This document shows, piece by piece, positions 2,936 to 62,889 of a stretch of 64,000 nt of DNA; positions within the stretch are counted from its first letter, which is position 1; the number at the start of each line of letters is the position of its first letter. The stretch is from Candidatus Woesearchaeota archaeon. Lineage in GTDB: Archaea; Nanobdellota; Nanobdellia; UBA10117; JABICX01. The stretch is taken from contig JABHLG010000013.1 of the NCBI GenBank assembly GCA_018692915.1, forward strand, positions 7,993-71,992, read 5' to 3'. The notes below the pieces were generated by a model that worked only from the letters and a program-made list of their open reading frames with translations, searched no databases and was not told the origin of the DNA. A program made the position numbers and the translations under genes.

Positions 2936-3696
2936 ATGTATAATTTCTCCTTAGCTAATATTTCAATTGCGTCTTTTGTCCAGAAGCTATTTCTTCTAGA
3001 TTTAAATCCTGGGCAAAGCATTTCTGCATTAAGCTTTTTAACATTAATTATATCAACACCTGCAATGTTTTTTGCAGCTTTAACTGCAGCTGTTTCTTTT
3101 GAAACAACAAATAAAGGTCCTCGTCTTCGAACATATTTTCTTCCTCTTCGAGTTCCTTTTCCTGCTCTTATTTTCTTGTCTTTTGATTTTTCAATTTCCT
3201 CTTTTAAGCCAAGACTTTCTAGTACTTTCTGAACTTCTTTTGTCTTTTTTAAGTCCATAAATTTATCATCAATAATTTTCAAAGTTTCAACATTTGCAGC
3301 CATAGCTGATCTAATTGCTTTTCTGTTTTCCTTTTTGTTAATATTTTCAATTAAAACCTTTTCAGATTTTGGTGGGAATGCTTTTCGTCCACTTATTGCG
3401 TTTGCAACAAATGCTCCAATAAATCCAAACTGCATTCCTCTGGAAAAAGAATATTTTCGCTTAATTCGTGATACTCCCTTACCATATGTTGTTTTATATT
3501 TTTGTCTTCGCTTTGTAGTTGCTGCTCCTTGCTTTGTTCCTGCATTTGGGTCTGAGCCATAAGCTTGTCTTTTCTTAGTTTGAATTGAAAAAACTGCTCT
3601 CTTAATTAAATCAAATCTAACTGGTTCTGAAAACTGAGTAGGTAAATCTACTTGTCCTTTTTTCTCTCCAGTTATTAAATATAATTCTGCTTTCAT
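2932..3696 (-). CDS. rpl4: 50S ribosomal protein uL4
   Basis: 254-aa ORF with uL4-like sequence and operon position. Confidence 0.85.
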   Translation of the reverse strand: MKAELYLITGEKKGQVDLPTQFSEPVRFDLIKRAVFSIQTKKRQAYGSDPNAGTKQGAATTKRRQKYKTTYGKGVSRIKRKYSFSRGMQFGFIGAFVANAISGRKAFPPKSEKVLIENINKKENRKAIRSAMAANVETLKIIDDKFMDLKKTKEVQKVLESLGLKEEIEKSKDKKIRAGKGTRRGRKYVRRRGPLFVVSKETAAVKAAKNIAGVDIINVKKLNAEMLCPGFKSRRNSFWTKDAIEILAKEKLYI

Positions 3697-5262: not shown

Positions 5263-5573
5263 TTAGCCTTTGACTACGACTAGCGGTTTTAGTTTAGCAA
5301 CCTTTTTCGCAAGTCCGGTTTTATGAAGAACACCAATCAGCTTTTGACGTGCAAAAGCTGGCAAAACACTTTCCTGCGCATTGCTTGGAAAATTAACCTT
5401 TTACAACCACTATTGGCTTCAACTGAGCTTTTTCTTACAGAAAAAGTTCGCAAAAAGAACGTTGTTTTTCCAAAACAACTGCTTCGCAAATGCAATTTAT
5501 CCTTTTACAACTACAAGAGGTTTCAATTTAGCAACCTTTTTCGCAAGTCCGGTTTTATGAAGAACATCAATAA
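5263..5573. repeat. Nested terminus-duplication locus at the rtcB 3' end
   Basis: On the plus strand the order is displaced copy 3 (5263-5339, encodes VLHKTGLAKKVAKLKPLVVVKG*) and a B-type hairpin element (5340-5392). Then come displaced copy 2 (5393-5422, LKPIVVVKG*), an A-type element (5423-5496) and the functional rtcB end (5497-5573). Confidence 0.85.
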
Positions 5574-16470: not shown

Positions 16471-17247
16471 ATGAAATATATATTCAAACTATCTGGAGAG
16501 AATTATAATCTAGCAAAGTTTGAATTAGAAACTTTACTTAACAAAAAGCTGAAACGAAACAAAGATTCTGTTTCAATTGATTTGCCATTATCTACTGAGC
16601 AAATTAATAAAATTTGCAATCGCTCTGCAATGATTCAGAAATGCTACACTAATAACTTAAAAATTTGGGCAGCTAAATCAGACAAACGATTTGTTGCGAG
16701 GGTGCCGAAAAAGAAACCTAAACAACATCCTGCAATGCTCAAACCAAAGATGGCGCGTTTACTTGTAAATCTCACTAACGCTAAAAAACAGATTCTAGAT
16801 CCCTTTTGTGGAACTGGTTCAATTTTAATTGAAGCGGGAATTCTTGGTCTAAAACCTATTGGCTCAGATATTGATAGTAAAATGATCGAATACTCAAAGA
16901 TCAATACCAAACAATTCAAAGTTAAATCGGAACTAAAACAACTTGATGCAACTCAACTAGAAACTAATTTTAAAAATATTGAAGCAATTGCATGCGACCC
17001 ACCATACGGTATAAGTTCTACTCTTGCTGGAAAGAAAATGCAAGATTTATATCCAGACTTTCTAACAAGTGCAAATAAAATTCTAAAAAAAGGTTCTCGC
17101 TTAGTAATGGTTCGACCACATTATCTAAAACTTGGAGTCAACAAAGACTGGAAAAAACTAGGAGAATTTGACTGGTATATGCACAAAGGACTTACTAGAA
17201 AAATATTAGTACTTGAAAAAAGAAGTGCTACGAGCAATGCGAAGTAG
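16471..17247 (+). CDS. SAM-dependent RNA methyltransferase (Trm11/UPF0020-like, N2-guanine type)
   Basis: DPFCGTGSILIEAG (motif I) and ACDPPYG (motif IV). The last 7 codons (SATSNAK) read into an inserted element. Confidence 0.6.
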   Translation: MKYIFKLSGENYNLAKFELETLLNKKLKRNKDSVSIDLPLSTEQINKICNRSAMIQKCYTNNLKIWAAKSDKRFVARVPKKKPKQHPAMLKPKMARLLVNLTNAKKQILDPFCGTGSILIEAGILGLKPIGSDIDSKMIEYSKINTKQFKVKSELKQLDATQLETNFKNIEAIACDPPYGISSTLAGKKMQDLYPDFLTSANKILKKGSRLVMVRPHYLKLGVNKDWKKLGEFDWYMHKGLTRKILVLEKRSATSNAK

Positions 17248-17335
17248 TGTGCTTTTGCCAGCTTTTTCACTAAAAAGCTGTGTGTATATGCACAAAGGAC
17301 TCACTCGGAAGATTTTAGTATTAGAAAAGAGGTAA
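17175..17335. repeat. Terminus-duplication locus at the methyltransferase 3' end (B-type element)
   Basis: Copy 1 is 17175-17223 (YMHKGLTRKILVLEKR). The element is 17224-17283 and contains hairpin agctttttcactaaaaagct. Copy 2 is 17284-17335 (YMHKGLTRKILVLEKR*). Confidence 0.85.
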
Positions 17336-17340
17336 ATAAA

Positions 17341-18075
17341 ATGTTAGTAGATACTCATTGTCATATAGATTTATGTAAAGCAGCTGTTCAGGAAGTAGTT
17401 TCTGGAGATATAATAATTATATCAAATGGCACAGATTTGCAAAGTAATAAAAAAGTTCTGGAATATGCAAAGATTTTTCCAAATGTTAGAGCTGCGCTAG
17501 GTCTTTATCCCACAGAGGCACTAAAACTCTCACCAAAAGCACTAAAAGAAGTTTTTCAGTTCATTGAGGATAATAAAAATAAAATCGTGGCTGTTGGTGA
17601 AGTTGGTATTGATTTTTATCATATAACTGATCTAAAAGAACAGAAAAAAGAAATTGAAGTATTTAAGCAAATTATAGATTTAGCAAATAAAATCAATAAA
17701 CCATTAATTGTTCATTCTAGAAAAGCTTCTGAAAAAGCACTATCTCTTCTGAAAAAAGCTAAAGTTCCTGTTGTAATGCACTGTTTTGAGGGAAATTCTA
17801 CTCAAACACATGAAGCTCTTGAACGAGGGTATTATTTTACAGTTCCAGCAAACTTCTGGACGCGAAAAGGATTCAAAAAAACCGCGCAAAGAGTTCCAAT
17901 TGATAAAATTTTAACTGAAACAGACTCACCATTTCTTTCTCCAATTGAAGGGGAAAACAAACCAGCAAATGTCCGTTATGCTGTAAAAAAACTAGCAGAA
18001 ATAAAACAAATTCATGAAAGCAAAGTTGAAACGCAAATATACCAAAATTTTAAGAAAATGTTTATTAAAGAGTAA
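17341..18075 (+). CDS. TatD family metal-dependent hydrolase
   Basis: MLVDTHCHID..., VGEVGIDFYH, LIVHSR, TETDSPFL. Confidence 0.85.
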   Translation: MLVDTHCHIDLCKAAVQEVVSGDIIIISNGTDLQSNKKVLEYAKIFPNVRAALGLYPTEALKLSPKALKEVFQFIEDNKNKIVAVGEVGIDFYHITDLKEQKKEIEVFKQIIDLANKINKPLIVHSRKASEKALSLLKKAKVPVVMHCFEGNSTQTHEALERGYYFTVPANFWTRKGFKKTAQRVPIDKILTETDSPFLSPIEGENKPANVRYAVKKLAEIKQIHESKVETQIYQNFKKMFIKE

Positions 18076-19617: not shown

Positions 19618-19750
19618 GCGCTCGTGGTCTAATGGCTCATGATTCTAGCCTTCCAAGGAATCCCTTCTTAGAAAGAAGGTCTTCCAACCCCAAGAACTAT
19701 TCTTGTGGAGAGGAGAGCTGGAGGTAGGGGTTCGATTCCCCTCGGGCGCA
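19618..19750 (+). tRNA. tRNA-Gly(UCC) with 60-nt intron at 37/38 (19656-19715)
   Basis: Hand fold. Acceptor gcgctcg/cgggcgc, anticodon stem ctagc/gctgg, loop ctTCCaa, T arm agggg-ttcgatt-cccct. The intron carries the D-type core aatcccttcttagaaagaaggtcttccaaccccaagaac. Confidence 0.8.
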
Positions 19751-30900: not shown

Positions 30901-31039
30901 TTACTCGTGACGTAAAGCATCAACCAGCTTTTTAGAAAAACCGAGCGACTACGTCGCGTGGCCACGCTAAAGTGTAACTTTAGCTTGGAGTTGGCAAAAA
31001 ACGATTGTTGACGTTTTACTCATGACGAAGTGCGTCAAC
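30901..31039. repeat. Terminus-duplication locus at the ABC permease 3' end (B-like, extended and structured)
   Basis: Displaced copy 30901-30924 (VDALRHE*), 91-nt insert 30925-31015 with several hairpins and the ggcaaaaaacg motif, functional end 31016-31039 (VDALRHE*). Confidence 0.8.
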
Positions 31040-33144: not shown

Positions 33145-33836
33145 TTCTCTCTCCTTTTTTTCTCAATTGCACCATCTTTTAACCAAAAGACATTATCTAC
33201 ACCTTTAAGTTTTGCGAATCGAGGATCGTGAGTTACGATAATTAATGTTTTTTTATGTTTTTCATGTAAGTCTAATAGCAAATCCATAATTTGCTCGCCC
33301 ATTTTAGAATCAAGATTTCCTGTTGGTTCGTCAGCAAGAATAATTTCAGGGTCATTAGCAAGTGATCTTGCAATTGCTACTCTCTGGCGCTCTCCACCAG
33401 ATAATTCACCGGGGCGATGAGTCATACGTTCTCCAAGGCCGACAAGCCGTAGTATTTTTTTTGCTTTTTCAACTTTATCTAAAACAAATGATCTCTTAAA
33501 TATCATCGGTAATGTAACATTCTCAATAGCTGTTAATGTTGGAATTAAATTAAATGTTTGAAAAACAAAACCAATTTTCTCTCCACGAACTTGTGCAAGT
33601 GTGCTCTCATCCATATGTGCAATATTCCTTCCATCTAATTTAACAATGCCTTTTGTTGGTAAATCTAACGCACCAACCATATTCATTGCAGTTGATTTAC
33701 CTGAACCAGATGGCCCCATAATAACTGCAAAATCTCCCTTATTTATTGTAATATCTAAACCTCGCAGTGCCGGAACTTCAACACTACCCATCTGATAAAT
33801 CTTCCAAACGTCTTGAACATCAATTATAGCTTTCAT
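33141..33836 (-). CDS. ABC transporter ATP-binding protein (MacB/LolD-like)
   Basis: Walker A GPSGSGKST, LSGGERQR, ILADEPTGNLD. Confidence 0.9.
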   Translation of the reverse strand: MKAIIDVQDVWKIYQMGSVEVPALRGLDITINKGDFAVIMGPSGSGKSTAMNMVGALDLPTKGIVKLDGRNIAHMDESTLAQVRGEKIGFVFQTFNLIPTLTAIENVTLPMIFKRSFVLDKVEKAKKILRLVGLGERMTHRPGELSGGERQRVAIARSLANDPEIILADEPTGNLDSKMGEQIMDLLLDLHEKHKKTLIIVTHDPRFAKLKGVDNVFWLKDGAIEKKRREK

Positions 33837-33924
33837 TTATACCTCCGAAGTTTGTGAGACTCGCTAAAATTTTGTTTAGCTCTGTCTTCCAAACGCCTTG
33901 CACATCTATTATTGCCTTACTCAT
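33801..33924. repeat. Terminus-duplication locus at the ABC ATPase 5' end (E-type element)
   Basis: Functional start copy 33801-33836 (MKAIIDVQDVWK), element 33837-33885, displaced start copy 33886-33924 (MSKAIIDVQGVWK). Confidence 0.8.
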
Positions 33925-35864: not shown

Positions 35865-36036
35865 GAGCCAGTAGCTTAGTCTGGATAACCGTTAGGTTCT
35901 TGCTGAACCTTGGTTCAGGAATAGAGCACTTCCCTCCTAAGAGCTTTTTCTTTTCTAAAGAAAAAGTTCGCAAAAAGAAACTAATTTTTGTAAAAGAGGT
36001 AGGAAGGGGTCGCAGGTTCGAATCCTGTCTGGCTCG
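35865..36036 (+). tRNA. tRNA-Arg(CCU) with two introns (D-loop 35888-35923; 37/38 position 35941-36001)
   Basis: Hand fold. Acceptor gagccag/ctggctc, D stem gctt/gagc, anticodon stem cttcc/ggaag, loop ctCCTaa, T arm gcagg-ttcgaat-cctgt. The canonical intron carries the A-type core gagctttttcttttctaaagaaaaagttcgcaaaaagaaac. Confidence 0.75.
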
Positions 36037-39683: not shown

Positions 39684-39811
39684 GCCTCTATAGCTCAGCT
39701 GGTAGAGCGTTACCCTCGTAAGAATCCCTTTCTTGTAAGAAAGGTCTTCCAACCCCAAAGAACGGATTCGGAAAAAGGTAAAGGTCGCAGGTTCAATTCC
39801 TGCTAGGGGCT
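39684..39811 (+). tRNA. tRNA-Thr(CGU) with 55-nt intron at 37/38 (39721-39775)
   Basis: Hand fold. Acceptor gcctcta/taggggc, D arm gctc-agctggta-gagc, anticodon stem ttacc/ggtaa, loop ctCGTaa, T arm gcagg-ttcaatt-cctgc. The intron carries the D-type core. Confidence 0.85.
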
Positions 39812-39920
39812 CTAACCTAAATAAGAAATATCTTTTATATCTCAGCTTTCTTCCAAGAAAGCTGGCAAAGAAACCTGCTAACTCAGTTGCTTCGCATTAG
39901 CCAAGGTAGCTAATGTCTTT
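39812..39920. repeat. Terminus-duplication locus at the PAC2-like gene 3' end (B-type element)
   Basis: Displaced copy 39812-39835 (KDISYLG*). Element 39836-39896 (cagctttcttccaagaaagctggcaaagaaac...gcttcgca). Functional end 39897-39920 (KDISYLG*). Confidence 0.85.
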
Positions 39921-42016: not shown

Positions 42017-42263
42017 CTTTTCTATCTCTCGAGATCGAAGATCTCCAGATACACTAAAGAGAATAAAAGTAAAACCAAACGCTAGGAAATCTGAAATCTT
42101 AGAAGAAACTGAAAATGAAATTAAGATTGCAATAGCTGCACCTGCACAAGATGGAAAAGCAAATACCGAACTTATTCGATTTCTAAAAAAAGAACGCAAT
42201 TGGAAATGTAAAATTGTTTCAGGGCTAAGATGTAAGAATAAACTTATTCAAATCCAAGAATGA
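41988..42263 (+). CDS. DUF167 (YggU-like) protein; start uncertain
   Basis: IKIAIAAPAQDGKANTELIRFLKK...IVSGLRCKNKLIQI. The present C-terminus (..QIQE*) reads into an inserted element. Confidence 0.55.
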   Translation: MVIKKNKKSDFSISRDRRSPDTLKRIKVKPNARKSEILEETENEIKIAIAAPAQDGKANTELIRFLKKERNWKCKIVSGLRCKNKLIQIQE

Positions 42264-42367
42264 ATTTCGCGACGAACAGATAAAGTGTTCTGAGGAGCGA
42301 AGTGGTGCGAACTGGCGCTGTCAGTTCATGTAAAAGGAAAGACTAATAAGAATAAACTTATTCAAAT
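42233..42367. repeat. Terminus-duplication locus at the DUF167 3' end (C-type element)
   Basis: Perfect 21-bp direct repeat taagaataaacttattcaaat (42233-42253 and 42347-42367) around a 93-nt insert containing gcgacgaacagataaagtgttctgaggagcgaagtg. Confidence 0.85.
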
Positions 42368-42370
42368 TCT

Positions 42371-50742: not shown

Positions 50743-50867
50743 CTATGCGTATTCTCTCCAAGTGTGATTGCCATTTTCTTTCTTGAAAGAAAGAAACTAT
50801 GCTTCCAAAGAAAGAACATATACTCGTGCTTCGCACGCAATTATGCGTATTCTCTCCAAGTGTGATT
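50743..50867. repeat. Terminus-duplication locus at the tfs 3' end (D/B-like element)
   Basis: 27-nt repeat (50743-50769 and 50841-50867, NHTWREYA*) with 26/27 identity, TAG vs TAA. It flanks a 71-nt insert gccattttctttcttgaaagaaagaaactatgcttccaaagaaagaac...gtgcttcgcacgcaa. Confidence 0.85.
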
Positions 50868-55304: not shown

Positions 55305-55351
55305 AGAATGTAATATAGTCTTAAGTATATATATTTTTTGTGTTAGTTATT

Positions 55352-55441
55352 ACTGACGAAGTCTGTTCCACTGACGAAGTTAGTGATACTGACGAAGTCT
55401 GTTCCACTGACGAAGTTAGTGATACTGACGAAGTTAGTTGT
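55352..55441. repeat. Tandem repeat, five 18-bp units (actgacgaagtctgttcc / actgacgaagttagtgat alternating)
   Basis: Read directly. Units start at 55352, 55370, 55388, 55406 and 55424. The last unit overlaps the stop of the 1167-aa ORF. Confidence 0.9.
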
Positions 55442-61614: not shown

Positions 61615-61910
61615 AAATCCCTAACTTTCTTCCTCAGAACTCAAGATATGTTCGTCAGAAAATTAACATAATATATTAATAAATAATATTATATTTCTTA
61701 ATTAAAATTAAAGTCCTCTTCCTGTTGCACAAACTTCAGGTGAAGTTTGATCACACCTTTGCTCCTCAGAATCCAAATTATATTCGTCGCAAAATAATGC
61801 CATTGGTTAACCAATTACTAAATTGAAAATCTCTAAATTTTCATTAAAAATCAATATAACATATTAATATACACATTTAACTCTATTCAAAATTAAAGTC
61901 CTCTTCCTGT
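61615..61910. repeat. Terminus-duplication locus at the 3' end of gene 61893-62534, with two tandem C-type units
   Basis: 22-bp perfect repeat aaaattaaagtcctcttcctgt at 61704-61725 and 61889-61910. C-type cores are ...cttcctcagaactcaagatatgttcgtcagaaaat (61629-61663) and ...tgctcctcagaatccaaattatattcgtcgcaaaat (61760-61794). Confidence 0.75.
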
Positions 61911-62534
61911 AGCTGTAATTGTTGCACTTAGAGCTCCTGTTTGATTTGCATCTGTTGGGATAATTAATTGTATTTCAACATTAATTGAATTATTAGCTTG
62001 ATTTGCATCAAGAACAGAACAAATAATATTTGCTGAAGTGTTAATATCTGTAAAACTTGTGTCAACTATATCTGCACAGGAATCTGATTCATTTTGTTCG
62101 ATTTTCCATCTAAAAGCAGGGTCTGAACCACCAACAAAATCTTCAGCAGTTTTATTTGCTGTAAGATTTAACTCAATTAAATCTCCACCAATATTTTCAA
62201 GAACTAAAGATTGACTTGTAGCTGTCCAATTTCCCCCAGTTACTGATTTCGCATCTGTATCTAATGTAGCATTTTCAAAACCACCTGTAACTGAGCCAGT
62301 TCCCCAATCTATTGCTGCTGACGTCCAATTAATTGCTGTAACAGATTCTATTGTTACTGTAGCGGTTGCATTTGAATCTGATGTAACAAAACCTGTAAAT
62401 CCCATACTATCTCCTAAAAAGAAATCAACCATAGACAAACTAATAGCTACAACTAACAAAAGAGCTAATAGCTCATTTGATATATTAAATCCTTTTCTTT
62501 TGCTAGACTGTCTCTTCCTGCTCACCATTTTCAA
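61893..62534 (-). CDS. secreted protein with pilin-like (class III-like) N-terminus
   Basis: KRKGFNISNELLALLLVVAISL N-terminus followed by FTGFVTSDS. Thr/Asn-rich with many sequons. Confidence 0.4.
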   Translation of the reverse strand: MKMVSRKRQSSKRKGFNISNELLALLLVVAISLSMVDFFLGDSMGFTGFVTSDSNATATVTIESVTAINWTSAAIDWGTGSVTGGFENATLDTDAKSVTGGNWTATSQSLVLENIGGDLIELNLTANKTAEDFVGGSDPAFRWKIEQNESDSCADIVDTSFTDINTSANIICSVLDANQANNSINVEIQLIIPTDANQTGALSATITATGRGL

Positions 62535-62727: not shown

Positions 62728-62780
62728 TAATTATAATATATCTTATTCTATATAAACTTTATGTGAATTTTAATAGAATT

Positions 62781-62889
62781 AATTAAAATTACTAACATCC
62801 TGTTCCTGTGTAATCCCTTCTTTTAAAAAGAAGGTTTTACAATCCCAAGAAATAAATTATAATTAAAATTACTAACATCCTGTTCCTGT
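62781..62889. repeat. Terminus-duplication locus at the 3' end of gene 62872-63735 (D-type, tRNA-intron-like element)
   Basis: Perfect 29-bp direct repeat aattaaaattactaacatcctgttcctgt (62781-62809 and 62861-62889). It flanks the 51-nt element gtaatcccttcttttaaaaagaaggttttacaatcccaagaaataaattat. Confidence 0.9.

What the first reader, a model, noticed from the sequence alone, without database searches (positions are those of the whole stretch)
17175..17335. Duplicated gene termini differ only at synonymous sites, which is not neutral decay of a target-site duplication
At the methyltransferase, copy 1 and copy 2 both encode YMHKGLTRKILVLEKR. They differ at 9 nucleotides in 7 codons (CTT/CTC, AGA/CGG, AAA/AAG, ATA/ATT, CTT/TTA, AAA/AAG, AGA/AGG) with zero amino-acid changes. 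The same holds at PAC2-like (9 differences in 24 nt including AGC/TCT serine, 0 changes), the permease (5 in 24 nt, 0 changes) and rtcB (8 in 30 nt, 0 changes). An untranslated relic should accumulate random changes. So either both copies come from diverged orthologues, or the functional copy was recoded under a second constraint. The first case would mean the element arrives carrying a foreign copy of the terminus, as in Campbell-type or att-like integration. An example of the second is pairing with the element: tagtactt 17207-17214 can pair with aagtgcta 17223-17230. The current ORF reads 7 codons into the element (SATSNAK*), whereas copy 2 keeps the presumably ancestral ..LEKR* five nt before the tatD ATG.
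Basis: partly seen in the sequence, partly recalled or inferred. Interest (0 to 1): 0.75.

Follow-up and report, generated by a model that had tools for sequence, protein, structure and literature searches.

The report
Intron-like mini-elements with recoded gene ends
In this Woesearchaeota (DPANN archaeon) genome, tiny hairpin elements related to tRNA introns sit at gene ends between two copies of the last codons that agree only at the protein level, which resembles a prophage supplying its own replacement gene end and may show how archaeal tRNA introns move.

Summary
The same 211-nt arrangement is identical in six further contigs from independent assemblies. About nine sites in the 64 kb carry a 50-92 nt hairpin element between two or three copies of a gene end. 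Random decay of a relic is rejected (P from 7e-3 to below 1e-4 per pair). The pairs are mosaics. An inner part is identical (18 nt at the methyltransferase, 44 of 45 nt at rtcB). The terminal 24-30 nt are as different as independent back-translations of one peptide. The elements are one two-hairpin family that is also a tRNA intron in DPANN genomes. The methyltransferase-site element is about 90% identical between species whose flanking genes are 72% identical. Carrier lineages are not monophyletic. Relatives show empty sites, or the same sites occupied. Best reading (about 0.4): an att/Campbell-like mini-element carries its own replacement terminus, as e14 does at E. coli icd; that pair, checked here, has 9 synonymous and 2 nonsynonymous codon differences. 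No recombinase was found and co-travel of the terminus is unproven. Recoding for pairing with the element is weakly supported.

The parts
16471..17247 (+). UPF0020-type methyltransferase gene (annotated tRNA G10 N2-dimethyltransferase by one source). Its last 7 codons (SATSNAK*) are read from the insert.
17175..17192 (+). Copy 1, inner part X: 18 nt identical to 17284-17301.
17193..17223 (+). Copy 1, terminal part Y (functional, LTRKILVLEKR). All 9 differences from copy 2 fall here, and it uses common codons.
17224..17284 (+). 61-nt two-hairpin element. HP1 surrounds GCAATGCGAAG. HP2 is CAGCTTTTTcactAAAAAGCTG (17259-17280), preceded by TTTTGC. About 90% identical to the element at the same site in L007.
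17285..17335 (+). Copy 2 (displaced terminus) with the native TAA, a GAGGT ribosome-binding site and 5-nt spacing to tatD. It uses rare codons (CTC, CGG, AGG).
17341..18075 (+). tatD. In relatives with an empty site its ATG overlaps or abuts the methyltransferase stop.
5497..5571 (-). rtcB terminus copy A (functional): 45-nt inner part plus 30-nt terminal part.
5423..5496 (-). Element el1. It contains TTCTTTTTGCGAACTTTTTCT, identical to part of the tRNA-Arg intron (opposite orientation relative to the host gene) and to the sequence after the rtcB stop in L165.
5393..5422 (-). rtcB terminus copy B (LKPIVVVKG*), terminal part only.
5338..5392 (-). Element el2, of the HP1-HP2 family (GCAATGCGCAG ... 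TTTTGCCAGCTTTTgcacgtcAAAAGCTG).
5263..5337 (-). rtcB terminus copy C (displaced). Its inner 45 nt are identical to A except one nonsynonymous change. Its terminal 30 nt carry 8 synonymous differences and the rare codons CCG, CTA and GTC, which it shares with the native terminus of L153.
39812..39920 (-). PAC2 gene end: copy 1 at 39920..39897, 61-nt HP1-HP2 element at 39896..39836, copy 2 at 39835..39812 abutting a convergent tRNA.
30901..31039 (-). FtsX permease end: copy 1 at 31039..31016, 91-nt element at 31015..30925, copy 2 at 30924..30901.
33800..33918 (-). ABC ATPase START duplication: relic start at 33918..33885, an inverted element that supplies GGAGG, and the functional start at 33833..33800.
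50744..50867 (-). TFS/RpoM-like gene end: 26-nt identical duplicates around a 72-nt element that begins with GTGCGAAGCAC.
42233..42368 (+). DUF167 gene end: about 22-nt duplicates (21 nt identical; the first base differs, g/a) around a 92-nt element. The downstream copy keeps the stop that overlaps the next ATG.
62780..62889 (-). End of a 287-aa ORF: 30-nt identical duplicates around a 50-nt element similar to the tRNA-Gly and tRNA-Thr introns.
35865..36036 (+). tRNA-Arg(CCU) gene with two introns. The anticodon-loop intron shares 21 identical nt with rtcB el1.

Best explanation
Each insert is a non-autonomous, site-specific mini-element of 50-90 nt. It has two hairpin modules: HP1, of the GCGAAGC type, and HP2, TTTGCC-AGCTTTT..AAAAGCT-G. 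It belongs to a family that also occupies DPANN tRNA genes as introns.

Inferred mechanism. The element enters a gene end by an att/Campbell-like exchange within the coding sequence. Its mobile form holds a copy of the gene end next to HP1. After entry the order is: gene body, core X, element-borne terminus Y, HP1-HP2, core X, native terminus Y, downstream gene.
- X is the segment where exchange happens, so it is identical in both copies.
- The element-borne Y keeps the gene intact.
- The native Y is pushed downstream, where it keeps the stop, ribosome-binding site and spacing of the next gene.
- The two Y versions have each served as a working gene end, one in carriers and one in non-carriers. 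They never recombine, so they differ only at synonymous sites, up to saturation.
- A second entry at the same site gives three copies (accretion).
- Identical duplicates are first or within-lineage insertions.

Shown: the anatomy, the polarity, the mosaic, the family link to tRNA introns, the scattered distribution across lineages and the empty sites.

Inferred: the exchange mechanism, the mobile form and the enzyme.
For: 1. Neutral decay is rejected.
2. The pairs are mosaics. Among codons with a synonymous alternative, 0 of 4 differ in the inner part versus 7 of 11 in the terminal part at the methyltransferase. The figures are 0 of 13 versus 7 of 10 at rtcB A-C (my Fisher tests give p = 0.05 and 5e-4).
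3. The terminal parts share 19 of 50 codons, against 24.5 expected for independent draws from the codon usage. The between-species baseline is 0.43-0.53.
4. The displaced copy looks native and young.
   - It keeps the stop, ribosome-binding site and spacing seen at empty sites in L009 and L153.
   - The inner 45 nt of the rtcB relic have a single, nonsynonymous change.
   - rtcB relic C shares the rare codons CCG, CTA and GTC with the native L153 terminus.
5. Polarity. By my reading of the sequences, the TTTGCC/HP1 side faces the copy joined to the gene body in 9 of 9 cases with duplicates. These include one gene-START case in L074 and a tRNA 3' end in L073. My binomial p is 0.004.
6. The methyltransferase-site element is about 90% identical between the window and L007, and the copy-to-copy offset is 109 nt in both. 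The gene body is 72% identical and tatD 71%.
7. Carrier lineages (P0001/P0121, P0004, P0005) are not monophyletic, and their nearest relatives are empty.
8. The same sites are used in other species.
   - The L153 permease end has a 36-nt identical duplicate and a 50-nt insert whose ends resemble the window's by eye, although global identity is only 46%.
   - The L165 rtcB stop is followed by el1-like sequence.
9. Three synonymous copies occur at rtcB. Three also occur at the ribosomal protein S10 end in another Woesearchaeota MAG, L042. There, copies a and c each pair with their own complementary downstream arm.
10. The known analogue was checked on E. coli K-12. The e14-borne last 165 nt of icd differ from the displaced icdC by 9 synonymous and 2 nonsynonymous codon differences.
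Against: - No integrase, transposase or reverse transcriptase was identified, and only ten ORFs of the window were scanned. The elements are too small to encode anything.
- The X segments of different loci share no obvious motif that a site-specific enzyme could recognise.
- The element-proximal terminus does not clearly travel with the element. Window versus L008 is 26/30 identical, but window versus L007 is only 21/30, while the elements are about 90% identical (my counts).
- A 91%-identical relative, P0121, has the same tail and the same 94-nt gap. No 251-aa empty-site allele is in the 90% cluster. Residence may therefore be long, and then a merely displaced relic should have decayed.
- In any exchange between diverged partners the two X copies would come from different parents and should differ. 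Their identity needs either a donor of the same lineage or later homogenisation.
- No copy was found on viral contigs.
- tRNA-intron copies have no flanking duplicates, so the family can also insert without them.
Confidence: 0.4

Rival explanations
1. An in-place duplication in which both copies stay under protein-level selection in the same genome, because the element is conditionally removed or skipped. Routes could be DNA excision between the identical cores, RNA splicing by the tRNA-intron machinery, or translational bypass from a codon in the first core to the same codon in the second. Either terminus then ends up in protein.
For: - This is the only in-place model that keeps the relic coding over a long residence. 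The 91% relative P0121 also carries the element.
- The element family is a tRNA intron elsewhere.
- Identical cores would provide excision sites or take-off and landing codons.
- The identical patches sit in different places in the window and in L007.
Against: - Gene-end copies lie in the opposite orientation to the tRNA-intron copies.
- A simple bulge-helix-bulge scan was not discriminating, even on the real tRNAs.
- In PAC2 the frame of copy 2 is closed by stops inside the element, and most functional copies end in their own stop.
- The model does not explain why the terminal parts are saturated while the cores are identical.
- It does not explain the scattered distribution with a highly conserved element.
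Confidence: 0.2
2. Scars of recombination between related genomes, with one crossover in the conserved gene and one illegitimate junction. The hairpins would be the donor's ordinary intergenic hairpin repeats rather than a mobile element.
For: - Both versions look like termini that evolved under selection in separate lineages.
- At S10 in L042 the two outer modules (a and c) each carry their own matching terminator-like arm.
- One copy often has atypical codon usage.
Against: - It does not explain the identical cores.
- It does not explain the same 109-nt offset and boundaries in two species.
- It does not explain the fixed polarity, the identical 21-36-nt duplicates at young sites, or the same hairpin family at all sites and in tRNA introns.
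Confidence: 0.2
3. An ordinary long target duplication. The downstream copy is then frozen because it is the promoter, 5' UTR and ribosome-binding site of the next gene. The translated copy, freed from that overlap, drifts synonymously toward common codons.
For: - Copy 2 at the methyltransferase holds a TATATG box about 55 nt and a GAGGT about 10 nt before the tatD ATG.
- The relic uses rarer codons at the methyltransferase, rtcB and the ABC start.
- Most codon changes run from rare to common at the methyltransferase and rtcB.
Against: - Relic terminal parts are no more conserved against empty-site orthologues than the saturated baseline: 5-6 of 10 codons shared (my count).
- PAC2 runs the other way and faces a convergent tRNA.
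- Identical cores next to saturated ends are not expected under a single rate.
- The three S10 copies each use different Ile and Val codons.
Confidence: 0.1
4. The functional copy was recoded to base-pair with the element or with itself, forming a hairpin around the stop codon.
For:
- PAC2 copy 1 forms an 8-bp hairpin that copy 2 cannot, and only 2% of synonymous recodings fold as well.
- All five junctions lie on the stable side. My Fisher combination of the five p-values gives about 0.02.
- At S10 the gene end and a downstream arm covary.
Against: - Four of five junctions are individually not significant, and the relic sequence folds about as well in the same context.
- It does not explain why the untranslated copy keeps its coding sense.
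Confidence: 0.07
5. An assembly artefact or collapsed strain alleles.
For: None found.
Against: The arrangement is identical in loci fetched from independent samples, sources and assemblers. It recurs in other species.
Confidence: 0.01

Closest known systems
Prophage e14 / phage 21 integration into the 3' end of E. coli icd (displaced pseudogene icdC)
   Same: The element supplies a replacement 3' end, so the gene stays intact. The native end is displaced to the far side. The two differ almost only synonymously: 9 synonymous and 2 nonsynonymous codon differences in 165 nt, checked. A short identical stretch lies at the inner boundary.
   Different: e14 is 15 kb and encodes its integrase and excisionase. 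Here the insert is 50-92 nt with no gene. The terminal parts are fully saturated rather than about 7% diverged. About nine sites occur in 64 kb.
Tandem accretion of integrative elements and their integrase-less derivatives at a gene 3' end (ICESt1 and CIME elements at fda in Streptococcus thermophilus; from my own knowledge, not checked here)
   Same: Arrays of three att-like copies of a gene end separated by two elements, as at rtcB and at S10 in L042. The derivatives are non-autonomous and flanked by att sites.
   Different: Those elements are kilobases long and depend on a known tyrosine recombinase with a defined core. No recombinase or common core is seen here.
tRNA-intron transposition in Thermoproteales (Fujishima et al. 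2010, as summarised in PMC4090602 and PMC10714607)
   Same: Near-identical intron sequences are found at different places in one genome, which implies movement at the DNA level by an unknown mechanism. Here the same families sit in tRNA genes and elsewhere.
   Different: That work reports copies only inside tRNA genes, in Crenarchaeota. Here copies lie at ends of protein genes, in the opposite orientation and with duplicated target sequence, in DPANN.
MITE-type non-autonomous transposons with target-site duplications
   Same: Small, gene-less, hairpin-rich, multi-copy, flanked by direct repeats of target DNA. Young copies have identical repeats.
   Different: The repeats are 21-75 nt and variable rather than short and fixed. 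No terminal inverted repeats were recognised. Placement at gene ends is strict and polarity is fixed. Older pairs differ only synonymously.
Mobile endonuclease element with a foreign atp6 C-terminus in Allomyces mitochondria, and translational-bypass 'byp' elements in Magnusiomyces mitochondria (from my own knowledge, not checked here)
   Same: atp6: an inserted element brings a foreign copy of the gene end, and the resident end persists downstream. byp: short mobile hairpin inserts tolerated within coding sequence.
   Different: The atp6 element encodes a homing endonuclease. The byps have no duplicated gene end and rely on ribosome hopping, for which there is no evidence here.

Membership tests
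Integrative element with an att site in a gene 3' end (e14 / phage 21 type) | Direct copies of the gene end flank the element. The copy joined to the gene is functional. The other keeps the native downstream context. | tested here: met
Integrative element with an att site in a gene 3' end (e14 / phage 21 type) | An identical core where exchange occurs, flanked by diverged element-borne and host arms. | tested here: inconclusive
   Clear at the methyltransferase (18 nt) and rtcB (45 nt). Absent or under 10 nt at PAC2, the permease, rtcB el1 and S10.
Integrative element with an att site in a gene 3' end (e14 / phage 21 type) | The element encodes, or is served by, an integrase or recombinase. 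| tested here: not met
   The inserts are 50-92 nt with no ORF. None of the ten neighbouring ORFs scanned is a recombinase. The rest of the genome is not available.
Integrative element with an att site in a gene 3' end (e14 / phage 21 type) | Excision restores the empty site, and a circular form exists. | not testable with these tools
   Empty sites are seen only in other species.
Transposon or MITE with target-site duplication | A short duplication of fixed length, made by staggered cuts. | tested here: not met
   Duplicates measure 21, 24, 26, 30, 36, 48 and 75 nt.
Transposon or MITE with target-site duplication | Duplicates identical at insertion, then decaying neutrally. | tested here: not met
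   Pairs are either identical or saturated with synonymous changes only. Random decay is rejected.
Archaeal bulge-helix-bulge tRNA intron | Sequence family shared with introns located in tRNA genes. | tested here: met
   The L072 tRNA at 3282-3411 contains the HP2 motif. el1 shares 21 identical nt with the tRNA-Arg intron. The element at 62.8 kb aligns with the tRNA-Gly and tRNA-Thr introns.
Archaeal bulge-helix-bulge tRNA intron | Lies in a transcript in the spliceable orientation, with a bulge-helix-bulge motif at its borders. | tested here: inconclusive
   Orientation at gene ends is opposite to that in tRNAs. My motif scan could not even single out the true tRNA splice sites.
Diversity-generating retroelement (template and variable repeat at a gene 3' end) | Differences confined to adenines of one copy, and nonsynonymous diversification. 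| tested here: not met
   Three of 9 methyltransferase differences, and most PAC2 differences, are not at adenines. No amino-acid change occurs.

The most novel reading that the evidence does not exclude
A DPANN-wide family of 50-90-nt elements of the tRNA-intron family moves at the DNA level as a 'gene-end cassette'. The mobile unit carries a synonymously recoded copy of its target gene's last codons, or first codons. That copy guides entry to the same site in different species and also replaces the displaced end. If so, these sites are caught-in-the-act intermediates of the long-unexplained transposition of archaeal tRNA introns, and they define a new class of minimal site-specific mobile DNA.
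Probability: 0.25. Interest if true: 0.85.

Novelty: new variant of a known kind. Interest (0 to 1): 0.7.

Why it matters
1. Reviews state that archaeal tRNA introns transpose at the DNA level by an unknown mechanism (PMC4090602). Here the same sequence families are found outside tRNA genes with their insertion junctions preserved. That makes the mechanism directly testable.

2. If the elements carry their own replacement gene end, they would be by far the smallest known example of the prophage/ICE strategy of integrating into a gene without killing it. They also occur at high density (about one per 7 kb) in a reduced genome with overlapping genes.

3. Gene-end pairs that agree only at the protein level are a trap for annotation. 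They give false C-terminal extensions such as SATSNAK and spurious small ORFs. They also mislead strain-resolved assembly and dN/dS pipelines for DPANN MAGs.

4. The frozen native ends record the ancestral gene junctions, so they can be used to date and orient insertions.

Tried and rejected
- Assembly artefact: rejected.
- Diversity-generating retroelement: rejected, because the differences are not adenine-specific.
- Frameshift or read-through into copy 2: possible by frame at the methyltransferase, where the ORF 17213-17335 is open, as it is in L007. Stops block it in PAC2.
- Known RNA families: no Rfam match for the elements even at E <= 10.
- Bulge-helix-bulge scan: not discriminating.
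- Pairing constraint: tested by synonymous recoding and found weak.
- Distant foreign orthologue: rejected, because both or all copies share lineage-specific residues.
- 'Which copy is native' from outgroups: only hints, since synonymous sites are saturated (about 0.5 shared codons between species).
- Metagenome scan with GCAATGCGAAG..TTTGCCAGC: chance hits only, and it missed contigs known to carry the element.
- Viral-contig scan: nothing relevant.
- Four contig look-ups returned no DNA. The closest relatives (P0121 for the methyltransferase, P0125 for RtcB) therefore could not be read.
- Literature searches found no description of this arrangement.
Full report
**What is at the coordinates.** The window is a 32% G+C archaeal sequence. 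The methyltransferase protein is named as from Candidatus Woesearchaeota in NCBI records.

A UPF0020-type methyltransferase gene (16471-17247) ends with the codons for YMHKGLTRKILVLEKR (17176-17223). It then reads seven more codons, SATSNAK*, into a 61-nt insert (17224-17284). The same 16 codons follow (17285-17332), then TAA, then five bases, then the tatD ATG.

The two copies differ at 9 nucleotides in 7 codons with no amino-acid change.

**Not chance, not an artefact.** If the observed number of nucleotide changes fell at random, so few amino-acid changes would be improbable. The probability is below 1e-4 for the methyltransferase and PAC2, 2.5e-4 for the permease, 5e-5 for rtcB A-C, and 5e-3 to 7e-3 for the two shortest pairs.

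The exact 258-aa protein was read on 23 contigs. The six loci fetched come from different samples and sources, have MEGAHIT- and SPAdes-style contig names, and include NCBI GCA_018646145.1. All six are identical to the window over the 211-nt region.

**The phenomenon is frequent.** A protein-level self-comparison of the window finds about nine such sites in 64 kb.

Diverged pairs:
- the methyltransferase;
- PAC2;
- the FtsX permease;
- rtcB, with three copies A, B and C and two different inserts;
- the START of an ABC ATPase gene.

Identical or nearly identical pairs of 21-30 nt:
- a TFS/RpoM-like gene end;
- a DUF167 gene end;
- two ends of unannotated ORFs near 61.7 and 62.8 kb.

All three CAGCTTT..AAAGCTG hairpins in the window lie between such duplicates.

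The same pattern occurs in other genomes:
- L007, a 73%-identical orthologue of the methyltransferase, has its own pair with 7 synonymous and 1 nonsynonymous codon difference (8 nt).
- L153 has a 36-nt identical pair at the orthologous permease end.
- L073 has a 24-nt identical pair of a tRNA 3' end.
- L042, another Woesearchaeota MAG, has three copies of the ribosomal protein S10 end GLNIEIEMV*. Each pair differs at 6-7 nucleotides, all synonymous.

**What the inserts are.** Most belong to one two-hairpin family. The first module is built around a GCGAAGC-type mini-hairpin (GCAATGCGAAG at the methyltransferase). The second is TTTGCC-AGCTTTT-loop-AAAAGCT-G. No Rfam family matches them.

A scan of one genome per species with the second-hairpin motif returned many chance hits. 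It also returned about 20 DPANN loci in which a GAA mini-hairpin again precedes the motif.

In several of these loci the element lies inside or against a tRNA gene. In L072 the tRNA called at 3282-3411 contains it, so there it is an intron.

Within the window:
- rtcB el1 shares 21 identical bases with the anticodon-loop intron of tRNA-Arg. The same 21 bases follow the rtcB stop in L165.
- The insert at 62.8 kb aligns with the introns of tRNA-Gly and tRNA-Thr.

Gene-end copies lie in the opposite orientation, relative to their host gene, to the intron copies.

**The pairs are mosaics.** At the methyltransferase the first 18 nt are identical and all nine differences lie in the last 31 nt. At rtcB the first 45 nt of A and C differ once, nonsynonymously (D in the gene, G in the relic), and the last 30 nt differ at 8 positions.

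Among codons with a synonymous alternative, 0 of 4 versus 7 of 11 differ at the methyltransferase, and 0 of 13 versus 7 of 10 at rtcB.

The terminal parts share 19 of 50 codons. Independent draws from the window's codon usage would give 24.5 (P = 0.07 for so few). Orthologues from different species share 0.43-0.53 of codons. At the nucleotide level, then, the terminal parts are no more alike than two back-translations of one peptide. The inner parts are fresh copies.

The identical patch sits elsewhere in L007, at codons 5-10. Pairs are either identical or saturated, with little in between.

**Which copy is native.** The downstream copy keeps the native context. Relatives with an empty site (L009, L010, L153) have the methyltransferase stop overlapping or abutting the tatD start. 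Copy 2 retains that stop, a GAGGT ribosome-binding site and the spacing.

Copy 2, rtcB C and the relic ABC start use rarer codons than their functional partners. PAC2 is the reverse.

rtcB C shares the rare codons CCG, CTA and GTC with the native L153 end.

Both methyltransferase copies carry the lineage-specific M and K. All three rtcB copies carry L..V, where relatives at 82-85% identity have V..C. A distant foreign donor is therefore excluded.

**Mobility.** The methyltransferase-site element is about 90% identical between the window and L007, with the same 109-nt offset. The gene body is 72% identical and tatD 71%.

In a tree of the methyltransferase, carriers (P0001/P0121, P0004, P0005) fall in three places, and each has empty-site relatives as nearest neighbours. 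This means either repeated entry into the same site or many precise losses.

Elements at different sites in the window are only 46-72% alike. Element lineages therefore look site-specific.

**Polarity.** By my reading of the sequences, in all nine cases with duplicates where orientation can be read, the TTTGCC/HP1 side faces the copy that is joined to the gene body. This holds for a gene-start duplication in L074 and for the tRNA 3' end in L073.

**Best explanation.** The anatomy matches integration into a gene end by an element that brings its own replacement end. I checked the classical example. In E. coli K-12 the last 165 nt of icd belong to prophage e14. The displaced native end, icdC, lies at the other side. 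The two differ by 9 synonymous and 2 nonsynonymous codon differences.

Applied here, the parts map as follows:
- The identical inner part is the exchange segment.
- The terminal part next to HP1 is element-borne.
- The downstream copy is the displaced native end.
- Triple copies are accretion.
- Identical pairs are first or within-lineage insertions.

Both versions have served as working gene ends, which is why only synonymous differences accumulate.

**Weak points.**
- No recombinase is seen.
- The cores of different sites share no motif.
- The proximal end does not clearly co-travel with the element (26/30 identical to L008, 21/30 to L007).
- The 91% relative P0121 also carries the element, with the same 94-nt gap. 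That hints at long residence.

I put this explanation at about 0.4.

**Rivals.**
- Both copies may be used in the same cell through excision, splicing or bypass. This would explain long-term maintenance. Against it are the opposite orientation to the tRNA-intron copies, the stop codons inside the PAC2 element, and the lack of any evidence.
- The pairs may be scars of recombination between related genomes. This explains two selected versions and the module-specific hairpin arms at S10. It does not explain the identical cores, the fixed offset or the polarity.
- The relic may be frozen as the next gene's promoter and ribosome-binding site. This explains the codon asymmetry at three sites. It fails for PAC2, and the relics are no more conserved against orthologues than the saturated baseline.
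- The functional copy may be recoded for pairing with the element. Only PAC2 supports this individually.

**Comparison with what is known.** Replacement of a gene end by an integrating element is established for prophages and ICEs. tRNA-intron transposition has been inferred in Thermoproteales, with the mechanism unknown (PMC4090602, PMC10714607).

I found no description of gene-less elements of the tRNA-intron family, 50-90 nt long, sitting at protein-gene ends between protein-identical, nucleotide-saturated copies.

I therefore rate this a new variant of a known kind. The mechanism is unresolved, and the link to the intron-mobility question is directly testable.

Noticed in passing
L023, L031, L032, L048, L051, L076, L102, L114 (Acutalibacter and related Clostridia genomes, about 60% G+C): A repeated bacterial sequence has the same two-part layout as the archaeal element: a CCGCGAAGCGG mini-hairpin, then AAAAGT, then TTTGCCAGCTTTTTCAAAAGCTG. 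In some copies it follows directly after a stop codon. Whether this reflects convergence, homology or transfer is unknown.
   Followed up: no
L042:565-775 (minus strand): Three synonymous copies of the ribosomal protein S10 end. Copies a and c each pair with their own complementary downstream arm, forming a hairpin around the stop codon (z = -5.2 for a). There are three compensatory double changes between a and c. Copy b has lost most of its arm.
   Followed up: partly
window 61625-61913: A larger, partly diverged duplication covers the end of the 213-aa ORF (ATGRGL*) and about 70-100 nt of downstream non-coding sequence. The 39-nt non-coding repeats are 77% identical. The coding part has one synonymous difference.
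   Followed up: no
window 19618-19750, 35865-36036, 39684-39811: Three tRNA genes with long introns, which ARAGORN missed and Rfam found. tRNA-Arg has two introns. The tRNA-Gly and tRNA-Thr introns share a conserved block (GGTCTTCCAACCCCAA) that repeats the tRNA-Gly anticodon-loop sequence CTTCCAA.
   Followed up: partly
window 55351-55440: Four to five tandem 18-nt units (TACTGACGAAGTCTGTTC / CACTGACGAAGTTAGTGA). On the minus strand they read as TSSV repeats.
   Followed up: no
window 17213-17335; L007 about 1250-1375: An ORF is open through the element into copy 2 in both species, with an ATG inside the conserved GCAATGCGAAG. It ends at the native stop next to the tatD start, so it could restore translational coupling. 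No equivalent exists at PAC2.
   Followed up: partly
window 42255-42268: The 92-nt insert at the DUF167 gene end begins with AAGAATGAATTT, a degenerate third copy of the duplicated target AAGAATAAACTT.
   Followed up: no
L165:10423-10452: The contig ends 30 nt into the el1-like element after rtcB. These repeats probably break short-read assemblies, so insertions may be under-counted in MAGs.
   Followed up: no
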